Shown here piece by piece: positions 3,501-58,744 of a stretch of 64,000 bases of DNA; position 1 is the stretch's first letter, and each line of letters opens with the position of its first letter. Source of the stretch: Octopus vulgaris (taxonomy: Eukaryota); the NCBI GenBank assembly GCA_951406725.2, contig OX597814.1, positions 48,484,001-48,548,000 on the forward strand. Direction: 5' to 3'. The position numbers and the translations under genes are program-made. A model generated the notes under the pieces. It made no database searches. It worked only from the letters and a program-made list of their open reading frames with translations, and had not been told where the DNA came from.

Positions 3501-4269
3501 TTTTTCTCTGATCCCTGTTCCTTCTATTTCTCTCTTTATGTCTATCTCTTTTTAAAAATATTTCTTATTACCCTCTAGTAAATTTTTTGGTTAATTTGGT
3601 TAATTATTCTGATTGCATTACTTATTTCAGTCTGAGACATATTTTATTGATCTATACTTATTGAAGTGCTAAGTTACGTTTTTAACATAAAGGGATGTAA
3701 CTTGACCTACCAGACATTATATGTAAAAACATATAATGTCTGTTTTCCATGCTAGTATTGTTTATACACTTTGACAGAATCTTATGAGATGCATCAGACA
3801 TATGTATATATATGGTGGAAGTCAACTTGTGTCCAAATGCAACCAGTTCTTGGAAAGTTCTTGGAAATTTCTCATATATTACCATGGATTACAAAAAAGA
3901 GCGCAACTGCCAGCCATATGTTGCTGACCAGTATCAAAAAGACATTATGCAAGCTTTGTATAGACCACTATTTCTAGGTTCTTCCTGATGAACAGGTGAG
4001 CAGTGCTATCTCTGAAAAAGGCTTCTCAGTCACTTGAGATACTGTTGGATTTCACCTTTGCCATTGTTTGGAAAAGAAGTGAGCAGTAATCCAAGCCATC
4101 TACATGCAAGTACTTCCAGGAATCAAACTTGTGTGTTCAACTACCCCTCATTGCTGCAAGACTGAGAGATCCATAGTATTTTTTAAGAAGTTCCTGCATG
4201 TGAAATTAATTATAGTGAGTGAAGTATGACCAGAACTGCACACACTTTTCAGGTAGAACATTTTTCTTT

Positions 4270-4572
4270 TCTGTGGCTCAGAAATTGAATGATCCTAGCT
4301 TTTACATCAGAGTATCGTTCTTCTAGAGATATGTTCTGACAAGAACTAGGGATTCATCATTTTGAAGTGGTGTTACAGTGTACTTGCTCACCATCAAAAA
4401 TTACTTTGTCTTAATGCATCACATTATTGGATGGCCATTGACTCCTTTGAATTTCTCTACTCTTTGACAAGTCTTGCTTTTCATCCTGCAGGATGTCCAA
4501 AATCATGCATTTCACCAAGCTTCCTTGGTAAGGTTGTCAGTTTAGTTGCTGATAACCCAAACATACAACACA
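4270..4572 (-). mobile_element. Old copy of the RTE-5'UTR-like non-coding element also seen at 50335-50835
   Basis: Minus strand GGGTTATCAGCAACTAAACTGACAACC...CATCCTGCAGGATGAAAAGC...GTCAATGGCCATCCAATA aligns by eye with the 50.8-50.6 kb copy. It may extend further left. Confidence 0.65.
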
Positions 4573-4638
4573 TGGTACTGTGGTAACTAACTTGTAACCA
4601 GTATCACTCTCAAGTGATCTTGCTCTCTCATGCATGTG

Positions 4639-4639
<1 letters not shown>

Positions 4640-4676
<37 letters not shown>

Positions 4677-4832
4677 GAGTTTCTGCATAGATTCTGTCTA
4701 TCAAATTCCATTCATAAGACATTGGTCAACTTGAGGCTAGAGTAAAAGATACTTACTCAAGGTGCCACTCAGTGCGATTGAACCTGAAACTACATTGTTG
4801 TGAAGTGATCTTCTTAACTACATGGCTGTTGC
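4640..4832 (-). mobile_element. Diverged SINE family A head plus (CA)n
   Basis: Degenerate A/B boxes and CORE-like segment next to a (CA)n tract. Confidence 0.75.
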
Positions 4833-5239
4833 TATTGAAATTTCCCAAACACTAAAGATTGCAGAAGCGTGCTTGCTTTTGTTTTAGTTTACATTCCAAT
4901 ATCAGGTGACTTTGATAAGATAGTAATAGCATTTTCGATGAAAATCTACTCCAGTTACAATATGGCTGGAAGCCTTACAGACAATAGAGACAGACTGTAT
5001 TGTTAGTGTAACAAGTGGGATATTGTTTTATATAAAATCTTCAGTAGGAAAAAGACTGATTGATTAGGGCTTACTTTATATACTGCATAAATCTCAAAGT
5101 CAACTTCAGCAGGATTTTTGCTCTGAACATAAAGTGATTGACTAAATAGAGAGAATCATTCTTCATTCCTCTACTAAATCCACAGCCCTTTTAATGTCAA
5201 TAATAAAGATTTCTGATGTATGCTTACAACTAAAGTTTG

Positions 5240-5640
5240 GTGGGAGGGTTCAGTGTATTCTATGTTTTGAGGGAGGGTTGAGATTATTCTGTGTTGTGCA
5301 AAGCTCTCTGTAGTGAGTGGGCTCAGCTTATTCTATGTTTTACATGAGGGCTCAGCTAATTCAGTGTTTTGTGGCAGGGGTCAAATCATTGTATGTTTTG
5401 TAGGAGGACACAGATTATTCTATGTGTTCTGGAAGGGCTCAGATTATTCTGTGTATTGTGGGAAGGCTCATGTTACTCTGTGTTGTGGGTGAGCTCAGTT
5501 TATTCTGTTTTGCATGAGGGTTCAGCTAATTCAGTGTTTTGTGGAAGGGTTTAGATTATTCTATATGTTGTGAAGAGGGCTCAGATTATTCTGGACCATG
5601 GTATGGCTCAGATGATTCATTCTTCTGTGTTGTGGGTTAA
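5240..5640. repeat. About 29-bp minisatellite inside a decayed Meta-like SINE
   Basis: About 13 units resembling GGGAGGGCTCAGATTATTCTGTGTTTTGT. The flanks match the two halves of the Meta-like SINE. Confidence 0.8.
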
Positions 5641-7368
5641 GATAATTTATTTAACCCCAATATTTGACTGACTGCTAAATGGATGAAAGTCAAAACTGAT
5701 TCAAGTAGATTAGAGCTCAGAATGTATAAGAATGTAATAAACACAGCAAAGAATTTTATCTGATTGTACTATCCACCATTCTTTTAATACCGCTATTAAA
5801 GTAACTTTAATTATTCATTATGCAACATGTAATTATTTGATAATGTTACTTAGTAATATCCATATATTACAACTATGCCCTATAATCATTCTCCTTTACT
5901 TAAATGTTATTATCATTTTACATTGTCTTGCATCTTAGTCATACATAGTGATCATTTGGTTTCCATTTTATATTGCAGTCAATAATTAGATTATATTTGT
6001 GCTTCTTTGGGGAATTAAAATTGAAAGTACACATTTTGGACTACATTACTTGGGAAAAATCAAGAGTGATTTATGTTTGTTTTAACTAAATGTTTCTTCC
6101 CTAGGTGATGAAAGTTAGGATTTATAAAGTGTGTTTAGTAATGCATGGACAATAAGGCTTGGGTTAGGACCAACAGATTGTGTTATAAAATGCATTATAC
6201 AAGAAAGAAGGGAGCAGCTGAATATAGTACAGAAAATGGATGGCAGGAGCTATATTAGGCTTGTGAGCAACTGAGAATTATTGATATAATAAAGAAAATT
6301 AATAAAACCTGATTCAGTGAAGTGATTAAGACTTACGCTATAAACAGTTGCTCATACTAATTTATTTCATTACACTTGAATAGAAATATCTAATAATACC
6401 ATTATTTCCCATGATGAAGAGGAAGAGATAATAAATAGATTTTCAGTTAACCTCATATCTAATATAACTGAATTATTTTTTACAATTACCATATTAAATA
6501 TGCTGAATCATTTATTTAAAATCCTCTTTTCCTCTCTCAGTTTGTCATTATTTAGCTATTGCTCTCTGAATGTGAATTACCTATATTATTACAATTACCA
6601 TATGTGGCGAAGTCTATGGTGAAGTTTTTGTCAGATTAAACTCATAGTGTTTCAAAAAACAAAGCTTATTAGCGATAAGAAATCATTAGTGAAATATTGT
6701 GCAGTATTAGGTATTCTATTATAATGCCAATTCTGATTAGGAAATTCAAGTTTTCTGGTTTAAATGAGGGTTAGTTGGAAAAGAGAAATTACTTAAAATA
6801 ATCAAGAGATGAATCTTAACCAACCTATTGTACCATCAATATAAAAATGAATATTGTACCATTAAATCTTTCAACCTACACTTGTTATCAGAAAAGAAAT
6901 TATAGACTTAGTCACAATTTACATAATGTGTATGTATAATTCAAAGTATGGTTGACTAAATTAATTAGCTCTCTTTTTTTTTTTTTTTTACATTATTAAC
7001 GGCAAAGGCAGTGCCTGTGATCCTTTACATATCTTCAGAGACTGGTGGAAGGGATGGAGAAAGGTTTTCTCAAATCAGAGACCTAAGCCTAACTGTTTGC
7101 AAACAACTTGAACTTATCTAAAGGCATCCAAAGTATCAGGTGGTAGTGTTAAACTAGGTGGCGAAAAATATATTCCTACAAGTAAATTCTGAAGTCCAAT
7201 AATTTAGACTTTTGGTTTCAATATTTTATATGTAGGTTGGTTGTTCCATTAAGATCAATATTAGGTGTAAAACATTATTCTAGTTGTTTGACAAGGCTTT
7301 GGTTTGCAAAAATTATACTTTATCATTTACTTGAGAACCATTTTTTAAATTCAATCTAAAATTTCAGG

Positions 7369-10230: not shown

Positions 10231-10431
10231 TACTAAAATTCTAGTCATCATCATCATCATTATTTTAATGTCTACTTTTCCATGCTTGCATAGGTCAGAG
10301 GTTATTGAGGCAGATTTTCTATAGCTGGATGTTCTTCCATGGAAAATCGTCCTCAATAAACCCTTTCTAGTGCATGCAAGAAAGGAAAAGTGATTGTTAA
10401 AATGATGATGATGATGATTAAAATTTTAGTA
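10231..10431. repeat. Imperfect palindrome made of two inverted RTE-type 3' tails
   Basis: TACTAAAATT...(CAT)n...TTATTGAGG arm is the reverse complement of the CCTCAATAA...(GAT)n...AATTTTAGTA arm. Confidence 0.85.
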
Positions 10432-12142
10432 GTGTTTATAATTTTCATCAATCCCTTGTTTTTGTTATTAAAACTGCGAAAGAAAGGTTGCTTTTCTGTA
10501 ACATCTCTACAGATTCAAAAGGTAAATACTTACATTAACTGCTAAAGCTGTATGGCATTTATTTCAAGAAACATCTTGAAGATCAATATATTTTACTGTA
10601 ATTTTGATTGATGAAATTATGAGAATTTTGTATGGAGATTTTATTTATGTTATAACTTTGATATCATAGCAAAGCTACATTATTTCATCATCACTATTGT
10701 TTTGATATGCTAGCTCAGCTTGGTTAGTCTAACCACCATCATGTTGCCACTTGCTCATATATTATATCATCGCTTCTGAATCCCAGCATTCTAAAATCCC
10801 ATTTCACTTTCTCACCTCTTTTTCTACACATTTTTCTCTTGGCAAAGGATGGGTTGGATTGGGTTGAATAATAACAGTTAAACAGACAATGCATGAAATG
10901 TATTAAAAACATTTCTTTGAAAACAATTATTTTTTTTAATATATCAAAATGCTTTATTTAAAAATATATTTTTTTTGTATTTAATGAAACATAAATCCAA
11001 TTTATTTTGCTATTTGTTTTTTCTCTTTGTAATTTTGTTTCAGCAATGACTTAAATTTATTTTCATATATGTGTGTGTGTGTTTTGAAAATAAAGAATTT
11101 AACACTTAGCCAAGTAAGATAGTCAACTTGAGTATTAAACATTTCATAAAATTAAAAGTGAGTTAGTTGGCTATCAAAAATTTTGAGCAACATAACCAAG
11201 ACAGTTCTGAATGAGTTAAAAACCTAAGGAAGAAAAAATAAAAAGAAAAGCAACAACAACAAAGGAAAGAAAGTTATCAGGCAGAATATGCTTAAATAAT
11301 GATGATATTGTAAAAGAGGTAGTAAAGAAAATGATAAAAGAAAATAATACTGGATGCAGATGGCAGTCATCATCATTGTCATTGTAAATGTCATCAACCT
11401 CTTGAAGTTGTACTGGCTACCCAGTGACAAATGATGAGATCTCTCCTCTCTTCACCTGACAAAAGATTCTTAGTTTATCATCATCATCATAACCATCAGT
11501 GTTTTCATATATAATATGTTATTGTTTGTGCTGAACGAGCTTTTCCTGTTGCTTTTCCTTGATTAGAGTTTATCATTATGATACTGTAACTGCTGCTTCT
11601 GTTGTCAATGATAATGATAATGATGATGATGATGGTATCTTTTTAAGTATGATTTTTTACTGTTGTTGTGTTGTTGGGTGAACTCTTCTTAGTTGTCTCT
11701 GTTTTATGTCAAGTTTATTTAAAGATGGATTTTTGTAGTAATTCTCTTTGTAAGATAATATTGTAATTACAATATAATTATTTTGAGAAGACTGCATAAT
11801 TTCCTTTACGTTATAGTCTACACTCTCGTGCAATTATATAGTTTTGTTTAATTTTTTGTGATTTGCAGCAGATTGTGAAGTAACTTGTTGCAACAGTAAT
11901 CAGACTTGGTTTGCTTGCACTTTTTGTGTTATCATTCATCTGAAGAAATAACCTATTCTGAACTTCATTTCATCTTTCTATGACCCTTTTGTGATACTTC
12001 CTCATAACATACCATTGTTTGGCTTTGGACCCAAACTAAAATTTAGGCCAAATTACTTTTTATGGCACTACTGAATCACAGTGTATTCTATTAGAATATT
12101 TTGTGAAATTTTTGTAACCATATAGAGATGTATCTTTATCTT

Positions 12143-12545
12143 GTACTTGTTTCAGTCATTGGACTGCAGCCATGCTGGGGCAGTGCTTTGAAGGGTTTTG
12201 TTGAACAAGTAGATCCTAGTACTTAATTTTAAGTCTGGTATTTATTCTATCAGTCCCTTTTACTGAATTGCTAAGCTACGGGGATGTAAAGAAACCAAAT
12301 GCCAGTTATCAAGCAGTGGTGGGATACAAATACATACCCTTCTCACGCACACACATACATTATAATACATACATATATTATAATGAGTTTCTACACAGTT
12401 TCCATCTACCAAATTCACTCACAAGACATTGGTCAAGGTGGAACTATACTAAAAGACATCTACCCAGGGTACTACAGAATGAGACTGAACCTGAAACCAG
12501 GTGGTTGTAAAGTGAACTTCTTAATCACACAACCATGCCTGTATA
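12143..12545 (-). mobile_element. Older SINE family A copy
   Basis: ACTTGTTTCAGTCATTGGACTGCAGCCATGCTGG tail through to a degenerate tRNA-like head. Confidence 0.85.
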
Positions 12546-13447
12546 TGGAAGTTGGAATTTTCTTTCATTTCAGAATATTTTCTGATAGAGTAATTAATAT
12601 TGACCTCTGAATACCAATGAAAATATATTTGTTCCCTTCACCATCCATTGTTTCATCTGAATTATTCTTGAAACACTTTATCTGTTGTGGTTCATAAAAA
12701 TGAAACCCATTGAATTTACTATATCACTAAAATGGGGTTTTCCCTTCAAAAGAAAAACCTTCTCAGTTAAGAAGTTTACATGTCTTTAGTTGTTTTATTT
12801 TTTTTTTCAGACAAATTTGGTTATTTTATCATTTAATATATACTGCTTCATTGGAATATGCAGTTTTTTCAATTTAGAATTGGGTAAACATAGTCAAATG
12901 GAGTATTCTTATGCTTTGTCTTGTCAGTAAGAAACTGTTTCACAAAGTTTCCTGTGAAAGTTAAAAATTATATTTGATTTTGTTTCTCCAAAGTTCTTTA
13001 CACTGAAACTAATTTATCAACAGCAGTCAAATCTCTCCTCTTCAATATATTTATGTATTTCAGGAAATGTATGTAAGCAATATCTGAAGTTAATTTGTTT
13101 AGTTTCAATTTCCCTTTCTCATGTGGATTAGATGACCCTAATTATTTGATGCGAGGGATTTCAAAGCTTGATGTTGTTCCTACCACTAATCAATCAACTG
13201 TTTAGTAGGATTGGAACTAGGTCATGAAACAGGCAAAATATGGCAGAAGTTATCGAGTTTTGAACCCATGACCATGCAATCAGTAGTCTATAGAATTAAA
13301 ATTCTATAATGCCTACTGGTAGTAATTCTTAATACTTCAAGCATTACTTTCAACTAAGAAAAGAAAATGGAGAAAAAACTTTTTAGCATGGATGAGCTCT
13401 AAGGATTCTCGGCATTTGAAAAACAGTTGTAGACGTTTATATTATTA

Positions 13448-13940
13448 GACTTGTAGGGACATGGTATTTTGTTATGCAACCATAATATGCTACAAAGTAT
13501 TTTAAACGTTTTTATAAGTCAATACCATGTACTACTGTGTTAGCAGTGCACTTAAATCATGTGTTAAGGTCATCTGTACAGATTTTCTATATAAATTAAA
13601 GCCAGCATTGATTTTATTATGATGCTTTGTGTCCAAGACGTCAGATGTAAGCAAAAAAGGGGTGATGGGTGTATATGCCATATTTTGGGAGTTTTTGCTC
13701 CTTCATCAGCACCCATCCAACCCATTAATCATCCACAAACTTATTGCTTAAATAACCACTACATACTGCAGTGTACTGTGATTGGATATACTAATTTACA
13801 TACTAAACACATTCCTGGAAGCTGGTATGTAAATATCTATGACTTGTAGGCACACAGTATTTCATTATGCAACCGTAATATGCTGCAAAGTATGTTAAAC
13901 ATTTTTATAAGTCAATACCACGTACTTCTGTGTTAGCAGT
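13448..13940 (-). mobile_element. Terminally redundant 393-nt unit with hammerhead motif (retrozyme-like or Penelope pLTR-like)
   Basis: 100-bp direct repeats at 13448-13547 and 13841-13940 (89/100 identical by my count, no gaps), with a hammerhead motif between them. Confidence 0.65.
13664..13717 (-). ncRNA. Type I hammerhead ribozyme motif, probably inactivated (G12>A)
   Basis: Minus strand: GATGGGTG-CTGATGA-A-GGAG caaaaa CTCC-C-AAAA-TATG g CATA-T-A-CACCCATC. This gives an 8-bp stem I, the CUGANGA core, a 4-bp stem II, AAAA in place of GAAA, a short palindromic stem III and an AUA triplet. Confidence 0.7.
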
Positions 13941-14597
13941 ATAATAATTTGTTGTAGAATTATTGACCTTGAATTACATGTGTGTGCATATGTATGTGCA
14001 AAAATTTAATTTGTTTTATCTCAAACGTTGTCCTTTTCCTTGAATAGGCTGAGAATGATAAATAAATATGTAACAATCTCTTTATATTGATAATTTAGGT
14101 GTCATAGTTATCTTTGTGACCATTATACATAAATCCCCAGAATCAAAGTGCTATGTTATAAAAATATCTATAATTGCATTATGATTACTTTCATAAGCTC
14201 AGAATATATTATTGATGTTGGAAAAGTAGTACAATTTCTTTTCTTTTAATATCAGTTGAAATGAACTTGTTTATTTCTTCTTTTTCTTTTGTTCTACTGT
14301 TGAAAAAAAAACCCTTTATAACTTTACAATACATTTTGAAATTAGAAAACATATTATGATTTAAGAATTACCTTAATATTTACATCTTTTCTTATTTGAC
14401 TTTTGTTCTAATCTATTAAATTACTTTTCAATTCAATATCCATTTCCAAGGAAATTATTATTACCCTTCCTTTTTTTATATTTCAATTAGATTTGTTTTA
14501 CCTGACACTAAATATTAATGTATCTGGTGTTCCTGTTCTCTACAACAATCTGGTCATAACCTTTTGGCTTTATTTAATAGTGTATATATAGTGTATA

Positions 14598-14993: not shown

Positions 14994-16421
14994 ATGTATA
15001 TATGTATATATATATATACTATTATAAGTACTTACAACAAAACTTTTGAATTTTTTTAGTATATTTCAAATTAGTGCACCATAGTGTTTAAATCAAGAAC
15101 AAAATCAAAACAGTTTTAATATATATTCAGTACATTACAATTTATTAAATTTCTAAAAGAAGGGTGAGATTTTCTTTAAAAAACTAATATGTAATTTTTT
15201 TTCTTAGTTTAAAATTTACATTTAATTTAGATAATATTTTCCAGAATGTTTGATCACTCTAGCGCTTAAAGGTACACAAAAATATGTACTGCTTCTCTGC
15301 AATAGTCAGTATTTGATTTTAGAATAAACAGATTGACTATAGGTAGGTAGTTGTTATTAACAAGATACTGCAGGATTTTCTGTGCACAAGTTCCAGAGTT
15401 GAACTTGATTTTGTTTCACTAAATCATCATCATTGTCTAGTAATTGATTGCATGTCAGTTTTCGTTTATAATTGCTTATGTTATTCTATTCTACTTCATT
15501 GTTAATATTTATGGTTTGCACTAATGATGACTGTGTCTTTGAGAGCTTATATTGTTTTACTGCTAGGTTAAATGTAAAATATTTGAGTCATCTGACATAA
15601 TGCCAATGTTATAGTCAAAATTGTATATCACAATTTTTCGTAATCTAGTGTTTGTATCATAACAGTAGTTGCAGAAGCAGCTTCAAATTTCAATCCATTT
15701 TGAGTTGAAGGTATTGAGGCCCACTACCACATTGTTATTTTCGTGTCCATTTTTCCATGATAGTATATTGTTGTTTAGACTCCAAATCAATTCCTCTCAA
15801 GGCGATCTATGATCAAAGTCATTCTAACCACGACCTTCCCCCATTTTTGTCAGACACTATGTATCTAGGACAACAAAATGCTATCTTTTGTAATATTTTT
15901 ATTATGGTAGAGTGTGATTTCAGAGTGCTATTTCTAGCAGGTAGATTAATTGCATAAAAAATCACGTGAAATAGGTTCTCAATATAGAATCTCACTGCCT
16001 ATACCAATTCAATGTTATTATGTCTATGAGGTTTAACTTTCTGATTTCTAATCTGAACTTTTAAGTATTCTTTGTCTTACTTCTCCATCATTAACTTTGG
16101 CTAATTTTTACCTATCATTAACTAATCATAGAAGATGATTCATATTGCGTCAAAATTTTGTTTTGTATGTATGTATATGTGTGTGTACATACATCTATGT
16201 ATGTGTGTAAGTGTGTGTGAACACGCATATAATAAATCCTTTTAGCAGTAGAACTAGAAGTAGATGAAGCTATAGATAATAGCATGTTGAATACGGGTTA
16301 AAAATAATCCTTAGCTGGAAGAAGTTAAAGCCTTCAACTTTCTTCATTCAAGGGGTTTTTTTAAACCAAATATTCTACATGCTATTATTTATATTATTTA
16401 TAGCTTTATCTACTTATGAGT

Positions 16422-17719
16422 TCATCATCATCATCATCGTTTAATGTCCGTCTTCTATGCTAGCATGGATTGAACGGTTCAACCGGGGTCTGGGAAGCCA
16501 GGAGGCTGCACCAGACTACAGTCTGATCAGGCAGTGTTTCTACAGCTGGATGCCCTTCCTAATGCCAACCACTCCGTGAGTGTAGTGGGTGCTTTTTATG
16601 TGCCAGGGGAGGCTGGCAATGGCCACGATTGGTTGGTGCTTTTTACATGCCACTGGCATGGAAGCCAGTCAAGATGGTGCTGGCATCGGTCACGTTTGGG
16701 TGGTGCTTTTTACGTGCCACCGGCACAGGTATCACAATTACAATTTCCATTTGATTTTTATTTTGATGTTGATGTACTTGACTCAATAGGTTTCCTCAAG
16801 CACGGCAGGTCGCCCTACGATCCAAGGTAAGCACAGCAGGCCATCCTGTGATCCAAGATACTTTGGGTGGACTGGGGCTGCTATGTGAAGCTGGTGCAGG
16901 AAACAGCCATGAACTCATGTTATTTGTCGGGTCTTACTTGGTCTTTCGTCATTGCCTCTGTGAGGCCCAGTGTTCGATGGTCATGCTTGACCACCTCATC
17001 CCATGTCTTCCTGGGTCTACCTCTACCTCAGATTCCTTTAACTGTTTGGGAGTGGCACGTCTTCACACATCTCTCCTCATCCATCCGTAGTACATGACCA
17101 TACCAGCGCAAACGTCTCTCTTGCATGCCACATCCGATGCTTCTTATGTCCAGCATTTCTCTCAGGGCATTTACACTCAGTTGTGTGTGCACACTGACAG
17201 TACACATCCAGCAGATCATGCTAGCTTCATTTCTTTCAAGCCTACGCATGTCCTTTGCAGTCACAGCCCATGTTTCACTGCTGTGAAGCATGGCAGTTTG
17301 CACATATGTGTCGTACAATCTACCTTTCACTCTGAGCGAAAGACACTTTGTCGCCATTAGGGGAAGAAGCTTTCTAAACTTTGCCCAGGCTATTCTTATT
17401 CTAGTGGTGACACTCCCTGAGCATCCGCCTCCACTACTAACTTGGTCACCTAGGTTGCGGAAACTATCAACTACTTCTAGTTTCTTCCCCTGGAGTGTGA
17501 TTGAATCTGTTTTATGAGTATCTGTGGTATCTATTGCCTTGTACATCTGCCACACACGAAAGCTATCTTCTCGGTTAATTTCCCTTTGATGTTGCTGCAC
17601 CTCTTATGCATTCATAGCTTACACTGAGTACATCTTATGGAGCTTCTACCTACACCTTTTCTACAGATCGAGCAGGGTCACATACCTGAGTGGGTGTGTG
17701 ATGAGTTTGCCTTCCTACT
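16422..17719 (-). mobile_element. 5'-truncated RTE-clade LINE (family RTE-A): PHD-like finger, RT C-terminus, 3'UTR, (ATG)n tail
   Basis: Translation ...FRNLGD...RIRIAWAKF...MLHSSETW...RRLRWYGHVLRM...GRPRKTW with stops and a frameshift; (CAT)n on the + strand. Confidence 0.93.
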
Positions 17720-17811
17720 TCAATTAAAAACAATTTATTTCTTATCTCTTATCAGAAATATAAAGTAAATTGCATTCAACAATGGAACTATAAATTCTCA
17801 TGACATAAACA

Positions 17812-17951
17812 GCATATATATAGATATATACATACATACATACATATATATAGATATATACATACATACATACATATATATAGATATATACATACATACA
17901 TACATACATATATATAGATATATACATACATACATACATATATATAGATAT

Positions 17952-18000
<49 letters not shown>
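17812..18000. repeat. Compound TA/TACA microsatellite with about 30-bp higher-order unit
   Basis: TATATATAGATATATACATACATACATACA-like unit about five times, then (TA)n. Confidence 0.9.
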
Positions 18001-18003
<3 letters not shown>

Positions 18004-18121
18004 ATATTATCAGCCACATATACATAACGTACATGGATCGTGCATTTGCCAGTAGGCTGCGATTTGGTGGTTGCTTTTTCAAAGTGCCAGGTGTCAAAGC
18101 ACCTGAAAGTCATGGACTGTG

Positions 18122-18155
<34 letters not shown>

Positions 18156-18161
18156 TATATA

Positions 18162-19400
18162 CAGGGGTTGGACAAAATAATGGAAACACCTTAAAATTTC
18201 AAACAAATTTATTTTGATATGGGGTAGGACTGCCTTTGGCAGTAATTACAGCTTGAATTCTATGAGGTATAGACTCATACAAAGTTTGAATTGTTTCCAA
18301 AGGAATTTTTATCCATTCTTCTGCTAAAACAGTCTCCAGTTCTTGTACTGATGATGGTAGAGGATATCGACTCCTTACTTGTTTTTCTAAAATACACCAT
18401 AAATGTTCAATAATATTATTGAGTTCTGGGGACTGTGGTGGCCAGATAAGATGTTCAACTCGACCAGAATGTCCCTCGTGTCATTCAGTTACAACTTTAG
18501 CTGTGAGAATTGGTGCATTATCATCCTGAAAGACTGTGTTTCCCTCCGCAACCATAGGATAAATTTGATCAGATAAAATGCTTAAACAGTTTTGACTATT
18601 AATTCTGCCATGATGGGAAACCATTGGACCGGCTGATTTCCAAGATGTAGTCCCCCAGATCATCACAGATCCTCCTCCATGTTTATCAACTGGAAGAAGG
18701 CAGTCTAGGTCAAATGCTTGTTTTGGCTGGTGGTTGGAAATAGGATAAAGGATGAGCTGTCTGAGAAAATATCATTCTTCCACTGCTCTAGAAACCAATT
18801 CTGTAGGTTTTTACTCTACTCTAAATGCCTTGCAATGTTTGTTTTTAAAAGTAGTGGTTTTCTGATTGCAGCCCTCCAGTGAAATCCAGTTTTGTGCAGC
18901 TCCCAGCGAGCAGTTTTTTGTGGAAACTGGGCTCACAAGGTTGTCATTAAGCTCTTCAATAATTTTGGGAGCTGTACTTTTGTGATCCTTTCTAACAATT
19001 TGTATAAGAGTCCGATAGTTCCTCCCTGAAAGTTTTGGTTTTCTTCCAGAGTTTTATTTCGATGAGGAGGTTTTTCCCTGTTTCTCAAACGCTGTCATTA
19101 CTTTCGAGTACTTCATGATTTACCAAACATTTCAGCTGTTTTCATTACCCTAGCACCTGTCATACGAGCACCAACAATTTGACCTCTTTAAAAGTCTGAT
19201 AGAGCTGTCATTTTACTGAGTTTTAATTACCTTTTTCTGATGATATCTGAAAAGAAACAGCAATTTTAGCTAAACATATTAAGCAACACTAATAATAAAT
19301 TTAAAAAAAAACATAAAGATAAACAAGCTTTTGATGGTTTTATAGATATTTCTATAATGATGATGTTATGATGCTAGGTGTTTCCATTATTTTGTCCAAC

Positions 19401-19405
<5 letters not shown>
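18162..19405 (-). mobile_element. Tc1-like DNA transposon, DD36E/Incomer-type, defective transposase
   Basis: 30-bp TIR CAGGGGTTGGACAAAATAATGGAAACACCT at both ends (terminal base changed on the right), TA flanks. ATG at 19211 gives MTALSDF*RGQIVGARM...KHGGGSVMIWG...FQDDNAP...WPPQSPELNNIIEHLW, with stops. Confidence 0.95.
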
Positions 19406-19435
<30 letters not shown>

Positions 19436-21778
19436 TAAAATATTGATGTTGGCAGAATAAACTAGATTCAGCTCAGCAGACTCTTAAGGCAGGAAGTTTA
19501 GAGTAAACCAAGCATGAAGTTTCAATTTCTCACTGAAGCCATTTCACTTCTAACAGAACCATTTACTAATTAGTTTTCAAAAATATATGAGTGTCATAAC
19601 TTGCCATTTCTTTTTCAAGCTTTGTGCTTGTGTAAGAAACCATTATAAGGCTGTAGCATTTTAAATGATATACAGTGGTTATTTTTTCTGTTTTCCCTTT
19701 CCTGCTTGTTTTAGATTTATACTTTATACTTTGGATATCCTGCATTAATGACTGTTTGAACATGGACTGTCACCTGAATTTTATAAAAATGGTTTTATGT
19801 AGCTGAATTGTTTATTACTATAGCTCGAAGTTTATTCATGACTAGCTTATTGATATTTAAGCAATCAAAACTGATTTTCTTCTCTTATTACTTATGTCTT
19901 TCAGAAATATCTTGTATACACCTGAAATCTTCCTTATAAATACCTAATACATCTAAATTATTGCAATTATAGACAATTATTTTATGGAAATATTTTATCA
20001 GTGCATTTTCTAAAATATAATTTTGAAATTGGGAAGGCTAGCATTAATTGCTTACTTCAAGAAAAGAAGACAAGACAATGTGTACGGTGTTGTAGAAAAA
20101 ACAGTTGGCTGTGATAATATTCATTACTTTGGTAAGAGCTCGTTAAAGCTGAAAAGTAAATACTCTAAACCAACATCAATTCTGACAAATGAATTCAATT
20201 AATCCAACATTAATTGATGTTTAATTCAATATCTTTCTTTGTATTACTTTGAACGCAAATGTTTTCAAAAATACAATTGGGATTATTGTATAAATAAAAA
20301 ATTTTAATTTAATTTTTCAAAAATTAGATACCTTTATTTTTGATATATTAATTAGAGTATTTTTGTTCAGTTTGAAAAGTATTGAAACAATATATAGAAT
20401 ATTCCTGATAGTGTCAAGAATATTTACTTTATTCTTAATTATTATTTCAAATTTACACACACATTCTTAATAATATTACAAAACTATATGATACCATCTA
20501 CCATTAATATTTAGAATGAAGGCTGTTTTGAGTCCGTAGAATATTTTTATATTCAATGTTTTATATTAGATAAAACATAGATATCTGAATACATGATGAC
20601 TGCCTGTCTTGCTTCTTTAGAGATTGAAACTAGGCAAAAGTCAAGCGTTTATCATATTTATATATTTTCCATTTGCCTCTTTGATCCATTGCATCACCAG
20701 CTTTTTAATCTCCCATTTAAAATTCATATATATATATATATATATTTTCTGAAGAAAATGTAAGCAGTGTTTTTTATTATTTCTCTTTTACCATTGGCTG
20801 AAGTGAATTGGATAATACAGAAATGTTCACTCCATTAAGAAAACATCACACCTTTGTTTATTCATCAAAAAGATGGCTACCTTTCTTTCAGAGCAACTTT
20901 TGAAATATGGTCTAGTTGATGAGAATGATAGGCACATCACAAGGAATTATTTTTTGACATGCAGCAAGCTTCACTTAATCACACCAAAATATTTCAAAAA
21001 GCCTTTTGGTGTCTACCTAAATCAAGCTTATTAATGGACTTTGACAATTTGAAACAAATCCTTGCGTTTTATCTTTGGTGAAATATTTAAAAACATTTTG
21101 CTTTCATAGAAATAGAGTTTAATAAAAAGAAATAGTTATTCATTACATTACCTTTGGTCATTCACCACAAATCTTTCTTGACTTTTACTAATACATATCT
21201 CTGTGGATGTTGAGTTGGTTTCCGTACAATTTTAGTATCCATAATTCAGCTTAAGTCAGGAGTCATCCTGTTTGTACTGCGTTATTTTAACTATTATTAT
21301 CTAACTTTTTCTTTGTTCATTTAGATAATTTTCTATTTATGCAATTCTGCAGCATTCTTATTTTAACACAAAAACTTCCCTGCCTGCTAAATTTTCCTTA
21401 TATATCTATATTATTCGTGGAGCTGAAAGTAAAGTTAATTTATCAAATTCTTACACCAATAAACGAAAGATGATTATCAGCAACAATTGAAAATAGTTTA
21501 TAACTGTGTGATACATCATAAATAGCAGAGAAGACATGTGTATCCTCTGAGATGACTTGATTCTACCAATGAACTTAACTATTTATTGTATTTTTCAAAA
21601 ACATACTTAGGTTTAGTCCTATATACTTTTCCCTTTCTACAGTTCCCTACCTCAACCAATATTCATACAATGTGTAGCTAACAGAAGATTTCTTGTTCTT
21701 CCATTTTTAGTCCCCGAATTAATCTCCCCCTTTTTCAGCTCCAATTAATTATTAACATACCTATTTACAATTGGTTAG

Positions 21779-21892
21779 GTCCAAGTATCACCAGTTCACC
21801 CAGTGTCTACTCCAGTTCCACCACTGATGGGGCACCCTATAATTGCTACAAAATTGATTCCCAGAGTCTAAAAAGTGCGTCCCACCCCAAAG
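21779..21892 (+). CDS. Candidate cassette exon of host gene (114 nt, phase 1-1): xPSITSSPSVYSSSTTDGAPYNCYKIDSQSLKSASHPK
   Basis: TTAG| acceptor, AAG|GTAAAA donor, open frame, locally raised GC, end phase fits the next exon. The acceptor is uncertain (alternatives at 21739 and 21711). Confidence 0.5.
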
Positions 21893-23373
21893 GTAAAATT
21901 TTTTTCCAATTTCCATTGCTAAATGCATCTACTTACTGCTGATTACTTTGAAACATTAGTTATTAATATGTTTGAAAAAGGTGGAGAGAGTGAGGATAAA
22001 AGCATGTGGTATGATGTCTCTTGTCTTCACTCCTTTAGCCCAGACTCCCACCCCACCTTGTGTCTATCTATTGAAAGAAAAATAACATTAATTGATTGCT
22101 ACAGCTTTTTGACTTTGTGTCATTTATTTCCCTTTGTTCATTCTTTTCTTAATCTAGTATCACTATTAATTTGGCTTCATTAATCTGCCTTAAATTATTC
22201 AAGTAATGCATTAGATACATTAAGCTTTGAAGTATGGTGATTCTTTATATATCACTAAAAAACTAATTTGCTTTTATTCTGCTTCCCTCTGTGAGCTAAT
22301 TCTTTTAATTTTGCTTTTGAAACATATTTTTAATCAGGTGTAAAAAAAAACAAAACCCAAATTTAGATTTGTGTGACTTTAAAATACACAGCAGTGTCAG
22401 AAATACTTTCAGAATTATTTTGGTTAAAATAAGACAAAATACTTATATCTATGCAAGCATAATTTATTTATTAATAGATTTATCACTGAATAACTTTATT
22501 TTACTTTTAGTTAATGTGTATTTATGAGTGTGTTTGTGAGAGAGAAAGAGAAGGAGATAGTCAAAGAGAGAAAGAAAACTAGTGTGTGTAAATATGAAGT
22601 AATTGCATATATGCTGTATGTGTATACATGAATATACTCTATTCGCCCTACACATCTATACATCATTTTTTTTTTCTGTACTCTTTCTTCAGTTGTACCT
22701 TTGGAAAGTTGGATTTCATTAAGAATTGTTGAAAATAGTTTTGATGTTTGAGTAAAATCAATTTAAGATTATACTTCAGTTCTTGTAAGAGTCTTTATAG
22801 AAACCCCATAATTACCAAAAAGTAGTGTCCTGACATATTTCTTGTTTAGGAATGGTCTCAGTTTGGAATGGATTGTTTATTTAACTATTTTTTGTGACTG
22901 TTTTAAGAAAGGAAATTCTAAAGATTCTAATGAACTTATATTGGTATAAAATACAACAGCATCAGCCTATACGCATAATTAGCTCAACTACATTTGTACA
23001 CTTACAGATCTTCAAACAAGTACATCAATATTACCTTATATTCTCTTTAGAAATCAAGTTAAGCCAAAATTGCTTGCAACCTTATCATTTTACTTTTTAA
23101 TTACTCTATTTTTTCCTTTCTATTTTCTTTTCTTTTCTTATTTTTTCTGTTATATTCATTTGCTATAAACTATTATTTTTACTTAGGTTTCTGTAAAAAT
23201 TCTCACTATATCACTTTTTCTTTTATATTTTATTTTCTGTTATTTAATCTGTTTTATTATTTTTTATCCCCCCACCACCGCTTCTTTTGTTTTGTTAATT
23301 CTTCTCTTTCTAATTTAACATTTTTATTCATTTGTTTTTATATTCTACTGATAAATAAATATATTTCTTGTAG

Positions 23374-23400
23374 ACGCTTGGTCCCAATTTCAAATTCCAG
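23374..23400 (+). CDS. 27-nt microexon of host gene (phase 1-1): (D)AWSQFQIP
   Basis: About 270-nt T-rich tract, TTTCTTGTAG| acceptor, consensus CAG|GTAAGT donor, length divisible by 3; the final G completes GCT with the 41867 exon. Confidence 0.75.
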
Positions 23401-25292
23401 GTAAGTTGATGTTTCGCAATTTTCCCAGTTAGGATTTATCTTTGGAAATGTGAAGCTGTCCAGTAGCACCGACATTAATAGTATTTTTAATAAAATAGCT
23501 CAAGATTATTCAACATTTGAAAATATTTGCATAATAATAATAAACCTTGCTCAACAAGGCTGTTGATTATTTTTACATTCAAACTGATTCTTTTACTAAA
23601 AATGTGATGTAATTAACACATGATCCACTACACTTCCTAAAGACTAATTGTTCTTCATAATTATTCCAGTTCTTCCTCTCTGCATCTTATAAGTGTAATG
23701 TTAAGAAATAAGATTTTCTTACTTCTCTTGCTATTTTCTGCTGCAGTTTGGCAAGATTTCTTATCATAGTTGATTGCTTGGATATATTTTACACTTCTTA
23801 TTCTTAATATATTATAAAGGAGATTTTATATTTTCCTGTGTTTAACTATATCGAATAGATTTGTGGTTGGTCTCCTCTAAACACACACACACATGCACAC
23901 TCATACACACACTTTCTTTCTCCATATATGTGTGTGTGTATTCTTATTTCCTTGTGTATTTATTCTTGCATGCATATTAGATTACGTTATTTGAGAGTCT
24001 TAAGGACTCTATCTTTTACATAGTGACACATTGAAAGTTGTATTGGAAAATGTGTGTGTTTGCGTATGTATATATGTATGTGTATTTGTGTGTATTTACA
24101 TGCACATACACATGTGCACACAAATTCACCCATACACACACATGCACATGCATGTGCACACAAACCATTTGTGCTTTGCTGAACCAAATGCTGGTGTGGT
24201 CATCTGGGTTATCCAAATAGACTTCCTTTAACACAATTTGTTATCATTAGGTTTTGAGTTATAATTAAAAGTTGCTGCGTGGAATAATTTTAACTAAACC
24301 TTAACTTTGTTGGTTTTCTTAAAGAACTGCTCTGTATTTTTGCATGCTGAACAATTTCTAAATATCTCTATTAGCGGAAGTGAAATCTAAAGAGATGTTG
24401 TCTTTGTTTTATCATGAATGTGACATGTCTGTGAATTAAAGATGTGAAAACTTCTCAAGAAATATCAGTTATAATCATGTAACAAAAATACAGCTGTGAT
24501 TAAGAGATAGTGCTTTTAGTAGTTCCTAAATCCAGACAGTGTAAGTTCAGGTTTTAGGATTATCTTTTGCTCAAAATAACTGAGAAAAGAACAGTTATCT
24601 GATATTGAATGTGTCAGTGGAGTAGAATTTTTGAAGATTATACTAATGATAGGCTCTTGAATAAGAAAGCTTTTGGAAATTTCCTAGTTGTGAAAATAGT
24701 CTATTAATACTTGAGAATATAATGTCTCATGTTTCAAGTTATTTAGCATCAACCCTGCTCTGATTGAACTGTCTTGTGATCAAAGAGGTTCCAGCTGTGG
24801 CCAAGCTGTCTTGCGATAAAGCATATCCAGTTCTGTTGTTATATATTGAGTTCTATTTTTTTTAAAGATGCTTGGATGTGATTTTGAGGGAAATTTGACT
24901 GCTATTTCTTGTGAGTTCAGTAACCATACAGAAGCCATATCATTGACTTGTGTGATTGAAGGTTGTTAATCAAAGAAAGTCTACATGAGTGGCACAGAAT
25001 AAGTTACAACTGATAGCTAAGTTTTTTTTCATTTTGAAAATCTTGCAAACAGCTTTACATTTAATGGACTTACTGTGATCAAAACAGCTTTACATTTGCA
25101 AGTCTTGCAGTGATCAAAACAGCCTGCCATTTGCTGCAGATATCTGAAGTTGCATAACTTATCGAATATATACTTTATGTAAAATGATATTAAATACAGT
25201 ATACAGTTTTGAAGCTGTGTGTGTGTGTGTTTTGTGAAGTAAACAGAAAAATAGATCTCAAAAGATGAGTATATACATACATATTACATATA

Positions 25293-25385
25293 TGGGCAAG
25301 TGTCTTCTACTATAGCCTCGGGCCGAACAAAGCCTTCTGAGTGGATTTGGTAGACGGAAACTGAAAGAAGCCCATCATATATATG

Positions 25386-25466
<81 letters not shown>

Positions 25467-25680
25467 ATATGTTTGTGTGTCTGTGTTTGTCTTCCCAACA
25501 TCACTTGACAACCGATGCTGGTGTGTTTACGTCCCCGTAACTTAGCAGTTTGGCAAAAGAGACCGATAGTATAAGTACTAGGCTTACAAATAATAAGTCC
25601 TGGGGTCGATTTGGTCGACTAAAGGTGGTGCTCCAGCATGGATGCAGTCAAATGACTGAAACAAGTAAAAGCGTAAAGAG
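25293..25680 (+). mobile_element. 5'-truncated SINE family A
   Basis: Starts at GGGCAAGTGTCTTC; long internal (TA)n; intact 3' tail. Confidence 0.92.
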
Positions 25681-28649: not shown

Positions 28650-29250
28650 CATGATAATAATAAAAATAATAGTTTCTTACATAGAAACAAAGTCAGAAAG
28701 ATGAAAGTCAAAGTTGACTTTAGTGGAATTTGAACTTGGACTGTAAAGAGCCAGAACTAATGCTGCAAGGCATTTTGTCTGATGCTCTAATACTTCTGCC
28801 GACCCACTGTTCTGAAAATGACAATTTCTCAGAGAGACACAGTGCTATAAATTTGAGGATGAGGAGGAGGTTAGTCAGTTAAATTAACCACAGTACATGT
28901 CTGGTACTTTATTTTATTGGTAGGATTTTGAATTCAGATTGTAAAGAACCAGAACAAATGCCACAAAGCATTTTGCCTGACACTCAAATGATACTGTTAA
29001 CTCACCACTTTTAGTAATCATAATAATAATAATCCTTTCTAGTATTAGGCACAATTTTTGGGGAGGGGACTAGTTGATTACATCAACCCAGTGTTTCTCT
29101 GGTATTTAATTTATCAATCCTGAAAGCATGAAAGGCAAAGTTGACTGTGACAGAATATGAACTCAGAAGATAAAGATTGATGAAATGCTGCTAACCATTT
29201 TACCTGGTGTGCCAACGGTTCTGCCAGCTCACCACCTTAATACTAATAAT
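28650..29250 (-). mobile_element. Cluster of about three decayed Meta/MESC-like SINEs separated by (TAA)n-like runs
   Basis: Repeated ATGAAAGGCAAAGTTGAC...TGAACTCAGA...CTGCCAGCTCACCACCTTAATA-like motifs. Confidence 0.8.
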
Positions 29251-29274
29251 ACATACATATATATACATACACAT

Positions 29275-35333: not shown

Positions 35334-35990
35334 GTATTTATGTTTGTCATACATCACACACGCATATGCATGCATCTTTGTACTAGATTTCGTAATAGAA
35401 ATGCCTAAAATAATTGTGAAACTTTGATAAAAACCTCCATAAAGTTAGCTAAGTTGAGTAATTCTAATGAACCAATGCCTTGACTTTATATAATTCAGGT
35501 GGGAAGTGATGTACTAGATGACATATACAAAATTTCTAAAAGGATTAAAATTTGTCTCTTAGAGAGAGAAAACAGTAACCTAACAGCAAATGTTAGAAAT
35601 TCCTAAAGAAAAGAGGAAATGATTTTAAGAAATTAAGAATTAATTTCTTAGAGAGTTGAATTTTCATGCTTATAGTAGAAAAATCAGTTTTCCACTAGCT
35701 TTTGTTTTCTATCTCCCACTCTGGAGGTAACTTTCATCCTCTACTTGAATGTGAGAAAATCTTGATTAGTTTTAAAATGCTTCGAAATAACTCCAGGCAA
35801 AATTGCTATGAATGAATCTAGTTTTTCTTATTATCATTTCATACTACCTAGGTCTGGCTTTGGGTGAAGAGTATAGTCTGCAAAATAATAAGGGAGGATT
35901 ATAACTGATTGAATTAATTAGCTTCAGTTCATTATTGATACTTGTCCCTTAATAAAATGTGAATCAATCCAGCATGATGATAATAATGAT

Positions 35991-37364: not shown

Positions 37365-37388
37365 GATAATAATAATAATAATAATAAT

Positions 37389-41470: not shown

Positions 41471-41866
41471 TATCTTTTCACTTGTCTTTCTTCTTCCTAT
41501 CACTGTTACTGTGTTTCACTTACAAGATTTTACAATCAATACTTCACCCAAACTTTTCTTCCTAGAATTGTCTCACTCTCTGAAATTTTTTTCCTCATTT
41601 ACATTCCCCCCTGCTTTAATATAAAGTGCAATATATATTCAAATAATGGATTATTTTGAAATACTATTACTTAAGTACACCCAAAATAATCTTCTCCATA
41701 CACATTTCAAAGTACATAGCAGCTCATAGAAATAGTTTTTCAATGAAAACCAGAAGGAAAAAAAGGGTGGTTTTTTATGGTCTACAAAGTTTCATCATCA
41801 TCATCGTCATCATCATCATTATTATTATCAAATATTTTAAAAATTATTTCATTTTTCTACTTTCAG

Positions 41867-42015
41867 CTGTTCAGCAAGAAAGAAAGCCACCTGATTCTGA
41901 GAAGAAAGCTCCTACAGCTATGGCTACTTCAACTCAGAGAATCTATATTCGCAAAGATCTAAACAGTCCAGCTGCTGCAATTCCCAATTTTTCCAATCGT
42001 GTATCTGAAATAGAG
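41867..42015 (+). CDS. Host gene exon (149 nt, phase 1-0): AVQQERKPPDSEKKAPTAMATSTQRIYIRKDLNSPAAAIPNFSNRVSEIE
   Basis: TTTTTCTACTTTCAG| acceptor, GAG|GTAGGG donor, open frame with protein-like composition, phase fits the 51562 exon. Confidence 0.88.
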
Positions 42016-58680: not shown

Positions 58681-58744
58681 TTAAGTATACAAGTAAATAT
58701 TGTGTGTGTGTGTGTGTGTATACACACACACACACATATATATA

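What the first reader, a model, noticed from the sequence alone, without database searches (positions are those of the whole stretch)
13448..13940. Candidate cephalopod retrozyme: 1.25 copies of a 393-nt unit carrying a type I hammerhead ribozyme
Seen: 100-bp ungapped direct repeats 393 nt apart (11 mismatches, several CpG-type) and no credible protein-coding ORF. Between them on the minus strand (13717-13664) lies a hammerhead fold: perfect 8-bp stem I (GATGGGTG/CACCCATC), CUGAUGA, GGAG/CUCC stem II, AAAA where GAAA is expected (a plausible CpG decay) and a palindromic ATATG-g-CATAT stem III. Established: metazoan non-LTR retrozymes are short tandem units of a few hundred nt with minimal type I hammerheads that work as dimers and yield circRNAs, and Penelope-like element pLTRs carry the same motif. 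Inference: partial terminal redundancy is what reverse transcription around a circular RNA would leave, so this may be a decayed copy of a possibly undescribed octopus retrozyme family.
Basis: partly seen in the sequence, partly recalled or inferred. Interest (0 to 1): 0.8.

Follow-up and report, generated by a model that had tools for sequence, protein, structure and literature searches.

The report
Dead hammerhead mini-retroelement in octopus intron
This is a decayed copy of a very abundant, gene-less octopus repeat that carries a hammerhead ribozyme motif and was likely spread by Penelope-type jumping-gene enzymes; it is an octopus example of a kind already known from mussels and frogs, and this copy's ribozyme is predicted to be dead.

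Summary
Two 100-bp repeats lie 393 nt apart (89% alike). Between them is a type I hammerhead fold that none of 200 shuffled windows matches.

Contigs from three octopus organisms show an abundant family: 1,923-3,502 contigs lie on it, and summed depth at the hammerhead is about 700 times the flank. Subsets of other copies carry the catalytic G12 that this copy lacks. Eleven displayed paralogous pieces run from the hammerhead toward the upstream repeat with no ORF.

The ends look Penelope-like, not like a randomly permuted circle: a fixed 3' end, a ~14-nt tail and a candidate 8-bp target-site duplication. The copy lies antisense in an intron of an NR2C-type receptor gene and is shared by two octopus organisms.

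Best reading: an ORF-less, hammerhead-bearing Penelope derivative that works like a non-LTR retrozyme. Tandems with two hammerheads, self-cleavage and circular RNA were not shown, so retrozyme membership is open. Our literature searches found no octopus report, but the kind is known. This scan noted similar Penelope mini-elements in other genomes, though not this family.

The parts
13426..13433 (.). Candidate target-site duplication, left copy (8 bp)
   Evidence: Longest common word of the two flanks. An 8-mer or longer match occurs in 1.2-1.7% of 4000 random flank pairs. No empty site was seen.
13434..13447 (-). Likely 3' 'tail': about 14 nt that repeat the unit-internal sequence following the upstream repeat
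   Evidence: Loose ends before 13448 share a 10-nt ending equal to the family's majority letters at 13831-13840 (tables 3 and 7). Against the window's own internal copy the match is weak (7.7% of random 15-mers score as well). Against family letters it is 10 of 14 by hand.
13448..13547 (-). 3' terminal repeat (pLTR end); fixed end of the family
   Evidence: Depth jumps from about 17 to 16,000-25,600 in X1. 153, 101 and 150 contigs have loose ends before 13448 in X1, X11 and X15.
13548..13663 (-). Spacer 3' of the hammerhead; this copy lacks about 14-18 nt near 13650-13653 that other copies have
   Evidence: tables 4, 5c and 7.
13664..13717 (-). Type I hammerhead. Stem I 13717-13710 with 13671-13664; CUGAUGA 13709-13703; extra A 13702; stem II 13701-13698 with 13691-13688; core with G12 read as A at 13686; palindromic helix III 13683-13673; cleavage would follow 13672
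   Evidence: Loose-end consensus of 41, 23 and 44 contigs shows G12 in other copies (table 7).
13718..13826 (-). Spacer 5' of the hammerhead, where an autonomous Penelope-like element would carry its ORF; none is present
   Evidence: frames. Eleven displayed paralogous pieces, 13-19% different, cross it collinearly (table 8).
13827..13840 (-). Unit-internal counterpart of the tail
   Evidence: table 3 (majority letters at 13837 and 13838).
13841..13940 (-). Upstream repeat, likely a 5'-truncated second unit (partial tandem)
   Evidence: No large pile-up of loose ends at 13940 among the rows shown; 9 contigs in X11 run on with unit-like letters.
13941..13950 (.). 10-nt AT-rich junction filler of unclear origin
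   Evidence: Sequence. It lies between the repeat end and the candidate duplication.
13951..13958 (.). Candidate target-site duplication, right copy
   Evidence: Its first base differs in organism E (table 3, place 13951).

Best explanation
This is one decayed copy of an abundant, ORF-less octopus repeat of about 400 nt with a type I hammerhead motif, likely inserted by the reverse transcriptase and endonuclease of a Penelope-like element acting in trans, so the family would work like a non-LTR retrozyme.

Proposed cycle, all steps inferred: (1) a source locus with at least two hammerheads is transcribed on the hammerhead strand. (2) The two palindromic helices III pair, the dimer cleaves after AUA and releases a unit-length RNA, which probably circularises. 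(3) A Penelope GIY-YIG endonuclease nicks AT-rich DNA. (4) Reverse transcription starts at a fixed point about 240 nt downstream of the cleavage site, runs through the cleavage junction and a little more than once round the unit, and stops at a variable point. This leaves repeat-body-repeat-tail between short target-site duplications.

This copy is predicted to be dead. It has one hammerhead, its general-base G12 reads A, and it lies antisense in an intron, so the host pre-mRNA carries only its reverse complement.
For: Shown here: (a) a hammerhead fold beyond chance. (b) The predicted lowest-energy fold of two copies together is exactly the dimeric active form, -41.4 kcal/mol, while helix III has pairing probability 0.01 in a monomer. 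(c) A high-copy family in organisms A, D and E; summed depth over flank is about 1,500-1,700 at the 3' repeat, 660-740 at the hammerhead and 330-350 in the upstream spacer (a rough figure, not a copy number). (d) Other copies carry G12. In the 30-letter loose-end consensus of 41 (X1) and 44 (X15) contigs, the four substitutions against this copy fall at G12, position 11.1 (giving a fifth A-U pair), loop 2 and N7. The majority change at 13664 keeps a G-U pair. (e) 11 of 30 records shown cross from the hammerhead to 13836-13940 without an ORF; 4 of them have 31 or more letters on both sides of the spacer (table 8). (f) A fixed end downstream of the hammerhead, a tail and a candidate 8-bp duplication. 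(g) No drop in depth across the cleavage site: 10,200 at 13557-13593 against 10,400-12,500 at 13668-13741 in X1, so templates did not end there. (h) An older related head-to-tail dimer with two hammerhead-like boxes lies at 33.4-34.4 kb.

From papers: pLTR, tail and 8-10-bp duplications in Penelope insertions, and mobilisation in trans by pLTRs alone (PMC3846280). Extra nucleotide before stem II and palindromic helix III in Penelope hammerheads (PMC4209133). Retrozymes as Penelope derivatives (10.64898/2026.07.22.740005). 172 Penelope families in O. vulgaris (PMC13282606 supplement). G12 as general base (PMC6155905).
Against: No locus of this family with two hammerheads was seen. No partner Penelope-like element was identified. 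The majority letter at 13686 over all laid contigs was not displayed (40 of 168 rows shown), so G12 rests on a subset whose alignment broke at 13714. Covariation could not be counted. Depth at the hammerhead is about twice that in the upstream spacer, which leaves room for copies that continue into an ORF. The whole unit folds no better than shuffles (z = -0.01), unlike the self-paired circles described. The tail is about 14 nt, not the 30-40 nt described. The duplication has a 1-2% chance probability, is separated from the repeat by 10 unexplained nt, and differs by one base in organism E. Rfam hammerhead models do not score the motif.
Confidence: 0.65

Rival explanations
1. The unit is not an independent family. 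It is the tandemly repeated pLTR region, or a gutted by-product, of an autonomous Penelope-like element, and ORF-less copies are 5'-truncated or internally deleted offspring that never propagated on their own.
For: The ends have Penelope anatomy. Depth falls from the 3' repeat (25,600) to the hammerhead (12,500) to the upstream spacer (3,600-5,800) in X1, as 5' truncation gives. Most Penelope hammerheads occur as single motifs in truncated copies (PMC4209133). Penelope covers 6.8% of O. vulgaris.
Against: The ORF-less junction is not rare. Eleven displayed pieces from four runs cross it, each 13-19% different from this copy, and spacer depth is still about 340 times the flank. No pile-up of loose ends upstream of the hammerhead is among the rows shown (24 of 1,518). 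Helices I and II (8 and 4-5 bp) are closer to canonical retrozyme-type hammerheads than to Penelope minimal ones (4-5 and 7-8 bp).
Confidence: 0.2
2. The family is ORF-less and Penelope-mobilised but moves through a linear, uncleaved RNA with terminal redundancy (template jump between the repeats). The hammerhead is an inherited passenger and no circle is involved.
For: This copy has its only hammerhead between the repeats, where cleavage would destroy a linear template. Helix III is unstable in a monomer. Depth over the repeat is 2-3 times that over the middle, as expected if most full copies are 1.25-mers. Naiad elements proliferate without hammerheads (10.1101/2021.04.23.441226).
Against: Differences in the displayed consensus avoid or restore core and stem positions, which suggests the motif was under selection in source copies. 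A related older element is a full dimer.
Confidence: 0.08
3. It is a TRIM-like non-autonomous LTR element: 100-bp terminal direct repeats around a short internal domain that happens to hold a hammerhead.
For: Repeat length is in the TRIM range of 100-250 bp, and bivalve TRIMs lack a canonical PBS (PMC6934838). The repeat can be read as starting TG and ending CA on the plus strand (13840-13938).
Against: No polypurine tract precedes either repeat on either strand, and no PBS follows. Identity runs on past the CA. The fixed end has a tail beyond the repeat. No short duplication abuts the repeats.
Confidence: 0.04
4. The hammerhead is a chance fold inside a local duplication or inside an unrelated repeat.
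For: No Rfam match, a core mismatch, and whole-unit fold at shuffle level.
Against: 0 of 200 shuffled windows give such a motif. The motif region is among the deepest-covered parts of a high-copy family, and other copies show the intact core.
Confidence: 0.03

Closest known systems
Metazoan non-LTR retrozymes (Cervera and de la Pena 2020, PMC7229834), closest the Mytilus galloprovincialis 350-390-bp family
   Same: Unit of about 400 nt, GC 34%, type I hammerhead, no ORF, many dispersed copies, mollusc host.
   Different: This locus has one hammerhead in 1.25 units, not a dimer or multimer. Helix III is predicted to need a dimer, whereas the cloned mussel monomer cleaved. The unit is not strongly self-paired. 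Circular RNA was not shown.
Retrozymes as non-autonomous Penelope derivatives, including 'solo' monomers (Li, Clavereau and Pollet 2026 preprint, 10.64898/2026.07.22.740005)
   Same: ORF-less hammerhead unit with Penelope features. This copy fits their monomer class, offspring that cannot transpose.
   Different: Their sample was 31 vertebrates, 3 insects and 1 anthozoan, with no mollusc. Their link rests on pLTR homology, while the link here rests on insertion-end anatomy; no parent element was identified.
Endonuclease-bearing Penelope-like element insertions (pLTR, tail, target-site duplication; PMC3846280) and their pLTR hammerheads (PMC4209133)
   Same: Partial tandem with a fixed 3' end, a tail, a candidate 8-bp duplication, an extra nucleotide before stem II and a small palindromic helix III.
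   Different: No RT/GIY-YIG ORF between the repeats, a shorter tail, longer helix I and shorter helix II than minimal hammerheads, and no inverted pLTR.
Bivalve TRIMs (PMC6934838)
   Same: Short terminal direct repeats around a non-coding internal domain in a mollusc.
   Different: No polypurine tract, a tail beyond one repeat, and a hammerhead in the internal part (the word 'ribozyme' does not occur in that paper's main text).

Membership tests
Non-LTR retrozyme | Type I hammerhead in the unit | tested here: met
   Descriptor hit beyond chance. G12 is lost in this copy and present in the loose-end consensus of other copies.
Non-LTR retrozyme | Short unit (about 170-400 nt) with GC below 45% | tested here: met
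   393 nt here, about 405-411 in other copies; GC 34%.
Non-LTR retrozyme | No ORF, PBS or PPT | tested here: met
   Longest frame 84 aa, no Pfam match; PBS and PPT absent by inspection.
Non-LTR retrozyme | Many genomic copies | tested here: met
   3,260, 1,923 and 3,502 contigs laid in X1, X11 and X15.
Non-LTR retrozyme | Tandem units with at least two hammerheads | tested here: inconclusive
   Not met at this locus (one hammerhead). For the family, contigs did not settle it (tables 5 and 7). An older relative at 33.4-34.4 kb is a dimer with decayed boxes.
Non-LTR retrozyme | Highly self-paired unit RNA | tested here: not met
   z = -0.01 for this decayed copy; 43 of 100 shuffles fold as well. 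Intact copies were not available.
Non-LTR retrozyme | Self-cleavage | not testable with these tools
   Needs in vitro transcription of natural copies.
Non-LTR retrozyme | Accumulation as unit-length circular RNA | not testable with these tools
   Only contigs were available and no run was on record as RNA.
Autonomous Penelope-like element | RT plus GIY-YIG ORF between pLTRs | tested here: not met
   Only 293 nt lie between the repeats. Eleven displayed paralogous pieces cross without an ORF. No Penelope domain among 51 window ORFs scanned (51 of the 81 ORFs of 80 aa or more).
Penelope-type insertion | Partial tandem with a fixed 3' end | tested here: met
   Pile-up of loose ends before 13448 in three runs.
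Penelope-type insertion | Variable 5' truncation | tested here: inconclusive
   No pile-up at 13940 among the rows shown, but loose ends at 13549-13553 (the equivalent place in the other repeat) mix true ends with diverged continuation.
Penelope-type insertion | 3' tail and target-site duplication of about 8-10 bp | tested here: inconclusive
   Tail about 14 nt with a modest match; 8-bp duplication with 1-2% chance probability; no empty site.
Penelope pLTR hammerhead | [quoted passage not shown] | tested here: met
   Extra A at 13702 and palindrome 13683-13673; features from PMC4209133. The conserved G10.1-C11.1 pair is ambiguous here.
TRIM | Polypurine tract before the 3' repeat and PBS after the 5' repeat | tested here: not met
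   Inspection of both strands; definition from PMC6934838.
Rfam hammerhead clan CL00010 | Score at or above the gathering threshold | tested here: not met

The most novel reading that the evidence does not exclude
Octopuses carry an undescribed retrozyme family, hundreds to thousands of copies strong, whose intact tandems are still expressed as circles of about 410 nt. Its insertions keep Penelope footprints (fixed priming site, tail, target-site duplication) while reading straight through the ribozyme junction. That would give direct genomic evidence that a Penelope reverse transcriptase copies circular RNA more than once round, a step so far only proposed.
Probability: 0.25. Interest if true: 0.6.

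Novelty: new member of a known kind. Interest (0 to 1): 0.35.

Why it matters
The copy itself is an inert relic. The family is of moderate use. How animal retrozymes are mobilised is still inferred: the 2020 paper names Penelope elements as candidates, and the 2026 preprint says it did not examine invertebrates and has limited evidence on the life cycle. A high-copy octopus family with a fixed priming end and mappable junctions would let someone count 5' ends against the cleavage site, and so test the circular-template model from genome sequence alone. It would also add cephalopods to the hosts, and flag a ribozyme family that Rfam misses in a genome where 15% is annotated as unknown repeat.

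Tried and rejected
- No RNA holder listed. Run X9 is only guessed to be RNA and also covers both flanks at depth about 6, so its higher-depth family contigs (67 and 135) say nothing firm about expression.
- Pattern scans found nothing in metagenome contigs or prokaryote genomes. Two viral-contig matches lack helices I and III on reading and look like chance hits.
- Rfam gave no hammerhead match.
- nhmmer with the single unit found no second copy in the window. A lax local alignment to 33.3-34.2 kb was not significant; a stricter one and a motif search were.
- A long hairpin in the terminal repeat looked like a recognition signal but is not beyond shuffles (z = -1.12 and +1.01); dropped.
- The bacterial promoter scan is not applicable to this host.
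- The joints that go back from the second repeat to the first (13881 to 13494 in X9; 13874 to 13530 in X1 and X15) were considered as proof of multimers and rejected. Their short sides (56 and 43-44 letters) fit ordinary element ends as well.
- A clock date from the 11% repeat divergence was not used, because 7 of 11 changes are at CpG sites.
- No earlier finding matched by sequence or in this genome.

Full report
Observation. The two repeats are at 13448-13547 and 13841-13940, 100 nt, 89% identical, 393 nt apart. Seven of the 11 mismatches sit at five CpG sites. The minus strand from 13717 to 13664 reads stem I (8 bp), CUGAUGA, one extra A, GGAG-loop-CUCC, one extra C, AAAA, the palindrome AUAUG-G-CAUAU, A, and the second arm of stem I. 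A type I descriptor that allows one core mismatch finds only this site in the window. It finds none in 200 dinucleotide shuffles at the observed stem lengths, and hits in 1 and 12 of 200 shuffles at looser settings. Helices I and II are predicted with probabilities of 0.86-1.0 and helix III with 0.01 in a monomer. For two copies folded together, the lowest-energy structure is the dimeric active form at -41.4 kcal/mol. Rfam does not score the motif. The whole unit folds no better than shuffles. The longest stop-free frame is 84 aa, with no Pfam match.

Host and context. An exon at 61248-61514 is 100% identical to an Octopus vulgaris orphan steroid hormone receptor 2 and 99% to the O. bimaculoides protein; I read this as an NR2C-type receptor from recall. 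Further exons map on the plus strand at 21781 onward, 41866-42015 and 51556-51690. The DNA-binding part (before residue 280) has no match in the window. The element therefore most likely lies in an intron, with its hammerhead antisense to the gene. Octopus methylates gene bodies and not transposons as such (PMC9476566, abstract), which fits the heavy CpG decay of an intronic copy (inference).

Family. No genome was held. Of 24 runs listed, 20 hold the stretch or part of it, from five organism codes and 11 studies; none is on record as RNA. I laid 4 of them on 13150-14250 at 80% likeness. Contigs laid: 3,260 (X1, organism A), 58 (X9, organism A, kind guessed as RNA), 1,923 (X11, organism D) and 3,502 (X15, organism E). 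Summed depth in X1 is 16.9 in the left flank, 16,000-25,600 over the first repeat, 10,200 at 13557-13593, 10,400-12,500 over the hammerhead, 3,600-5,800 over the upstream spacer and 2,600-3,500 over the second repeat. Ratios to the flank are about 1,500-1,700, 600-780, 660-740 and 330-350 in X1 and X15. The tool warns that this is no copy number; I read it only as hundreds to thousands of copies. Most laid contigs are under 95% alike. The output was cut: 40 of 168 difference rows, 15 of 258 joints, 24 of 1,518 loose ends and 32 of 9,215 pieces were shown.

Hammerhead in other copies. Place 13686 is not among the 40 difference rows shown, so the overall majority at G12 was not seen. Loose ends before 13714 (41 contigs in X1, 23 in X11, 44 in X15; agreement 0.75-0.79) give a 30-letter consensus, the same in X1 and X15 and one letter different in X11. 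After a one-letter insertion in stem I it aligns to 13685-13713 with four substitutions. They give G at position 12, U at 11.1 (a fifth, A-U pair in stem II), a change in loop 2 and a change at N7. This copy also lacks about 14-18 nt near 13650-13653, so the usual unit is nearer 405-411 nt. G12 is the general base (PMC6155905, passage), so this copy is predicted not to cleave.

No ORF in the unit. Among 30 records shown, 11 run in one piece from inside the hammerhead (start at or below 13715) to 13836-13940, each 13-19% different from this copy. They are X1 records 5-7, X11 records 11-15, X15 records 20-21 and X9 record 28. Four have 31 or more letters on both sides of the spacer (records 5, 13, 14, 20). 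The ORF-less arrangement is thus a family trait, not a one-off deletion. This does not exclude an autonomous relative with the same 3' part, since hammerhead depth is about twice the spacer depth.

Ends. Loose ends pile up before 13448 (153, 101 and 150 contigs; another 39, 25 and 38 before 13451). Their consensus is featureless AT-rich sequence except for the last 10 letters, which equal the family's majority letters at 13831-13840. So the end downstream of the hammerhead is fixed and carries a short tail that repeats what follows the upstream repeat. In this copy 13433-13447 matches the family form at 10 of 14 positions by hand; against the window's own internal copy the match is weak (7.7% by chance). 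Directly outside the tail is an 8-mer (13426-13433) that recurs at 13951-13958; such a match arises in 1.2-1.7% of random flank pairs. One base of the right copy differs in organism E, and 10 nt between the repeat and the 8-mer are unexplained. At the other end no pile-up at 13940 is among the rows shown. Nine X11 contigs run on with unit-like letters, but these could come from the downstream repeat. Loose ends at 13549-13553 mix diverged continuation with possible true ends, so 5' variability is likely, not shown. Organism E has contigs across both junctions (records 16 and 22, about 5% different), so the insertion predates the split of A and E.

Mechanism. pLTR, body, pLTR, tail and an 8-10-bp duplication is the described anatomy of endonuclease-bearing Penelope-like insertions, and pLTRs alone can mobilise sequence in trans (PMC3846280, passages and Discussion). 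Hammerheads in pLTRs have an extra nucleotide before stem II and palindromic helix III, and circular templates were proposed to explain the tandems (PMC4209133, parts 1-2 of 4). Non-LTR retrozymes are short tandem units with type I hammerheads expressed as circles, 350-390 bp in mussel, with Penelope elements the candidate drivers (PMC7229834, passages and sections 14 and 17). A 2026 preprint argues that they derive from pLTRs and defines 'solo' monomers (10.64898/2026.07.22.740005, parts 1-3 of 5). O. vulgaris has 172 Penelope families, 30 recently active (PMC13282606, passages and whole supplement). I therefore take this as an ORF-less Penelope derivative inserted by target-primed reverse transcription from a fixed 3' site. 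Depth does not fall across the cleavage site, so templates did not stop there: they were circles, uncleaved multimers, or were rejoined by template jumps. A 1.25-unit copy with one hammerhead cannot itself release a unit-length RNA, so source loci would need two hammerheads; none of this family was seen. An older relative in the window is a head-to-tail dimer (33423-34408; score 183 against a null maximum of 85.5 in 295 segments). It has a decayed CUGAUGA-like box in each unit and shares 46 nt with this element (score 52 against a null maximum of 41 in 379 segments). That is weak support for tandem organisation.

Membership and novelty. It works like a non-LTR retrozyme by size, composition, ribozyme type, lack of ORF and copy number. 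Membership is open because two-hammerhead tandems, cleavage and circles were not shown, and self-pairing was not met in this decayed copy. It is not an autonomous Penelope element and not a TRIM (PMC6934838, passages).

Literature coverage. Searches for hammerhead ribozyme with octopus (4 of 5 listed), hammerhead, ribozyme and cephalopod (4 of 7 listed), retrozyme with octopus (2 of 3 listed) and non-autonomous Penelope with hammerhead (none) showed no description of such a family in octopus. The giant squid genome paper reports 235 Rfam hammerhead 1 matches (PMC6962438, passage). The words ribozyme and retrozyme are absent from the O. vulgaris repeat paper, and ribozyme and hammerhead from PMC8967140 (passages). 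Also seen as passages: 10.1101/2021.04.23.441226, PMC7761336, PMC10886601. The supplement of PMC7229834 could not be read and the preprint's supplements are closed; either may list cephalopod elements. Repbase and Dfam could not be searched, so the family may already be catalogued under a Penelope or unknown label. Earlier notes of this scan describe similar gutted or truncated Penelope elements with hammerheads in other genomes; none matched this sequence.

Verdict. A real, old, dead copy of an abundant hammerhead-bearing non-autonomous element: a new octopus member of a known kind. Interest is moderate (0.35), higher if intact tandems prove to be expressed as circles.

Noticed in passing
window 33423-34408 (+): Old head-to-tail dimer with a period of about 450-530 nt. 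Each unit has a decayed CUGAUGA-like box (33651 and about 34161), and unit 1 shares 37-46 nt with the element at the same side of the box. Probably an older relative.
   Followed up: partly
window 60513-60775: Palindromic insertion (arms 60550-60618 and 60657-60725, 86%) with a minimal-hammerhead-like motif on the minus strand at 60612, also reading AAAA for GAAA. It resembles an inverted Penelope end; the fold is not stable (z = +1.12).
   Followed up: partly
window 60230-60450: A second long inverted repeat next to the palindrome (arms 84-88% complementary), with an end match at 58736-58768; possibly a MITE.
   Followed up: no
window 21781-61514 (+): Exons of an orphan steroid hormone receptor 2 gene with introns of 10-20 kb. 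The stretch at 21781 and a short one at 23373 match the O. bimaculoides isoform only, suggesting alternative exons.
   Followed up: partly
window 35974-37388: Degenerate tandem array, period 216-239 nt, also matching 28917-29251; no hammerhead by the descriptor.
   Followed up: no
window 48098-48479 and 62424-62806: Two 383-nt copies, 96% identical, whose minus-strand frames read like the end of a LINE protein (recalled resemblance to RTE); a similar fragment lies at 17028-17603.
   Followed up: no
run X9, record 25 and loose ends behind 13607 and 13609: A 1,387-nt contig at depth 135 carries only 13464-13609 of the element. Loose letters there contain GAAA-bearing words on the opposite strand, which may belong to inverted hammerhead ends of another family.
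   Followed up: no
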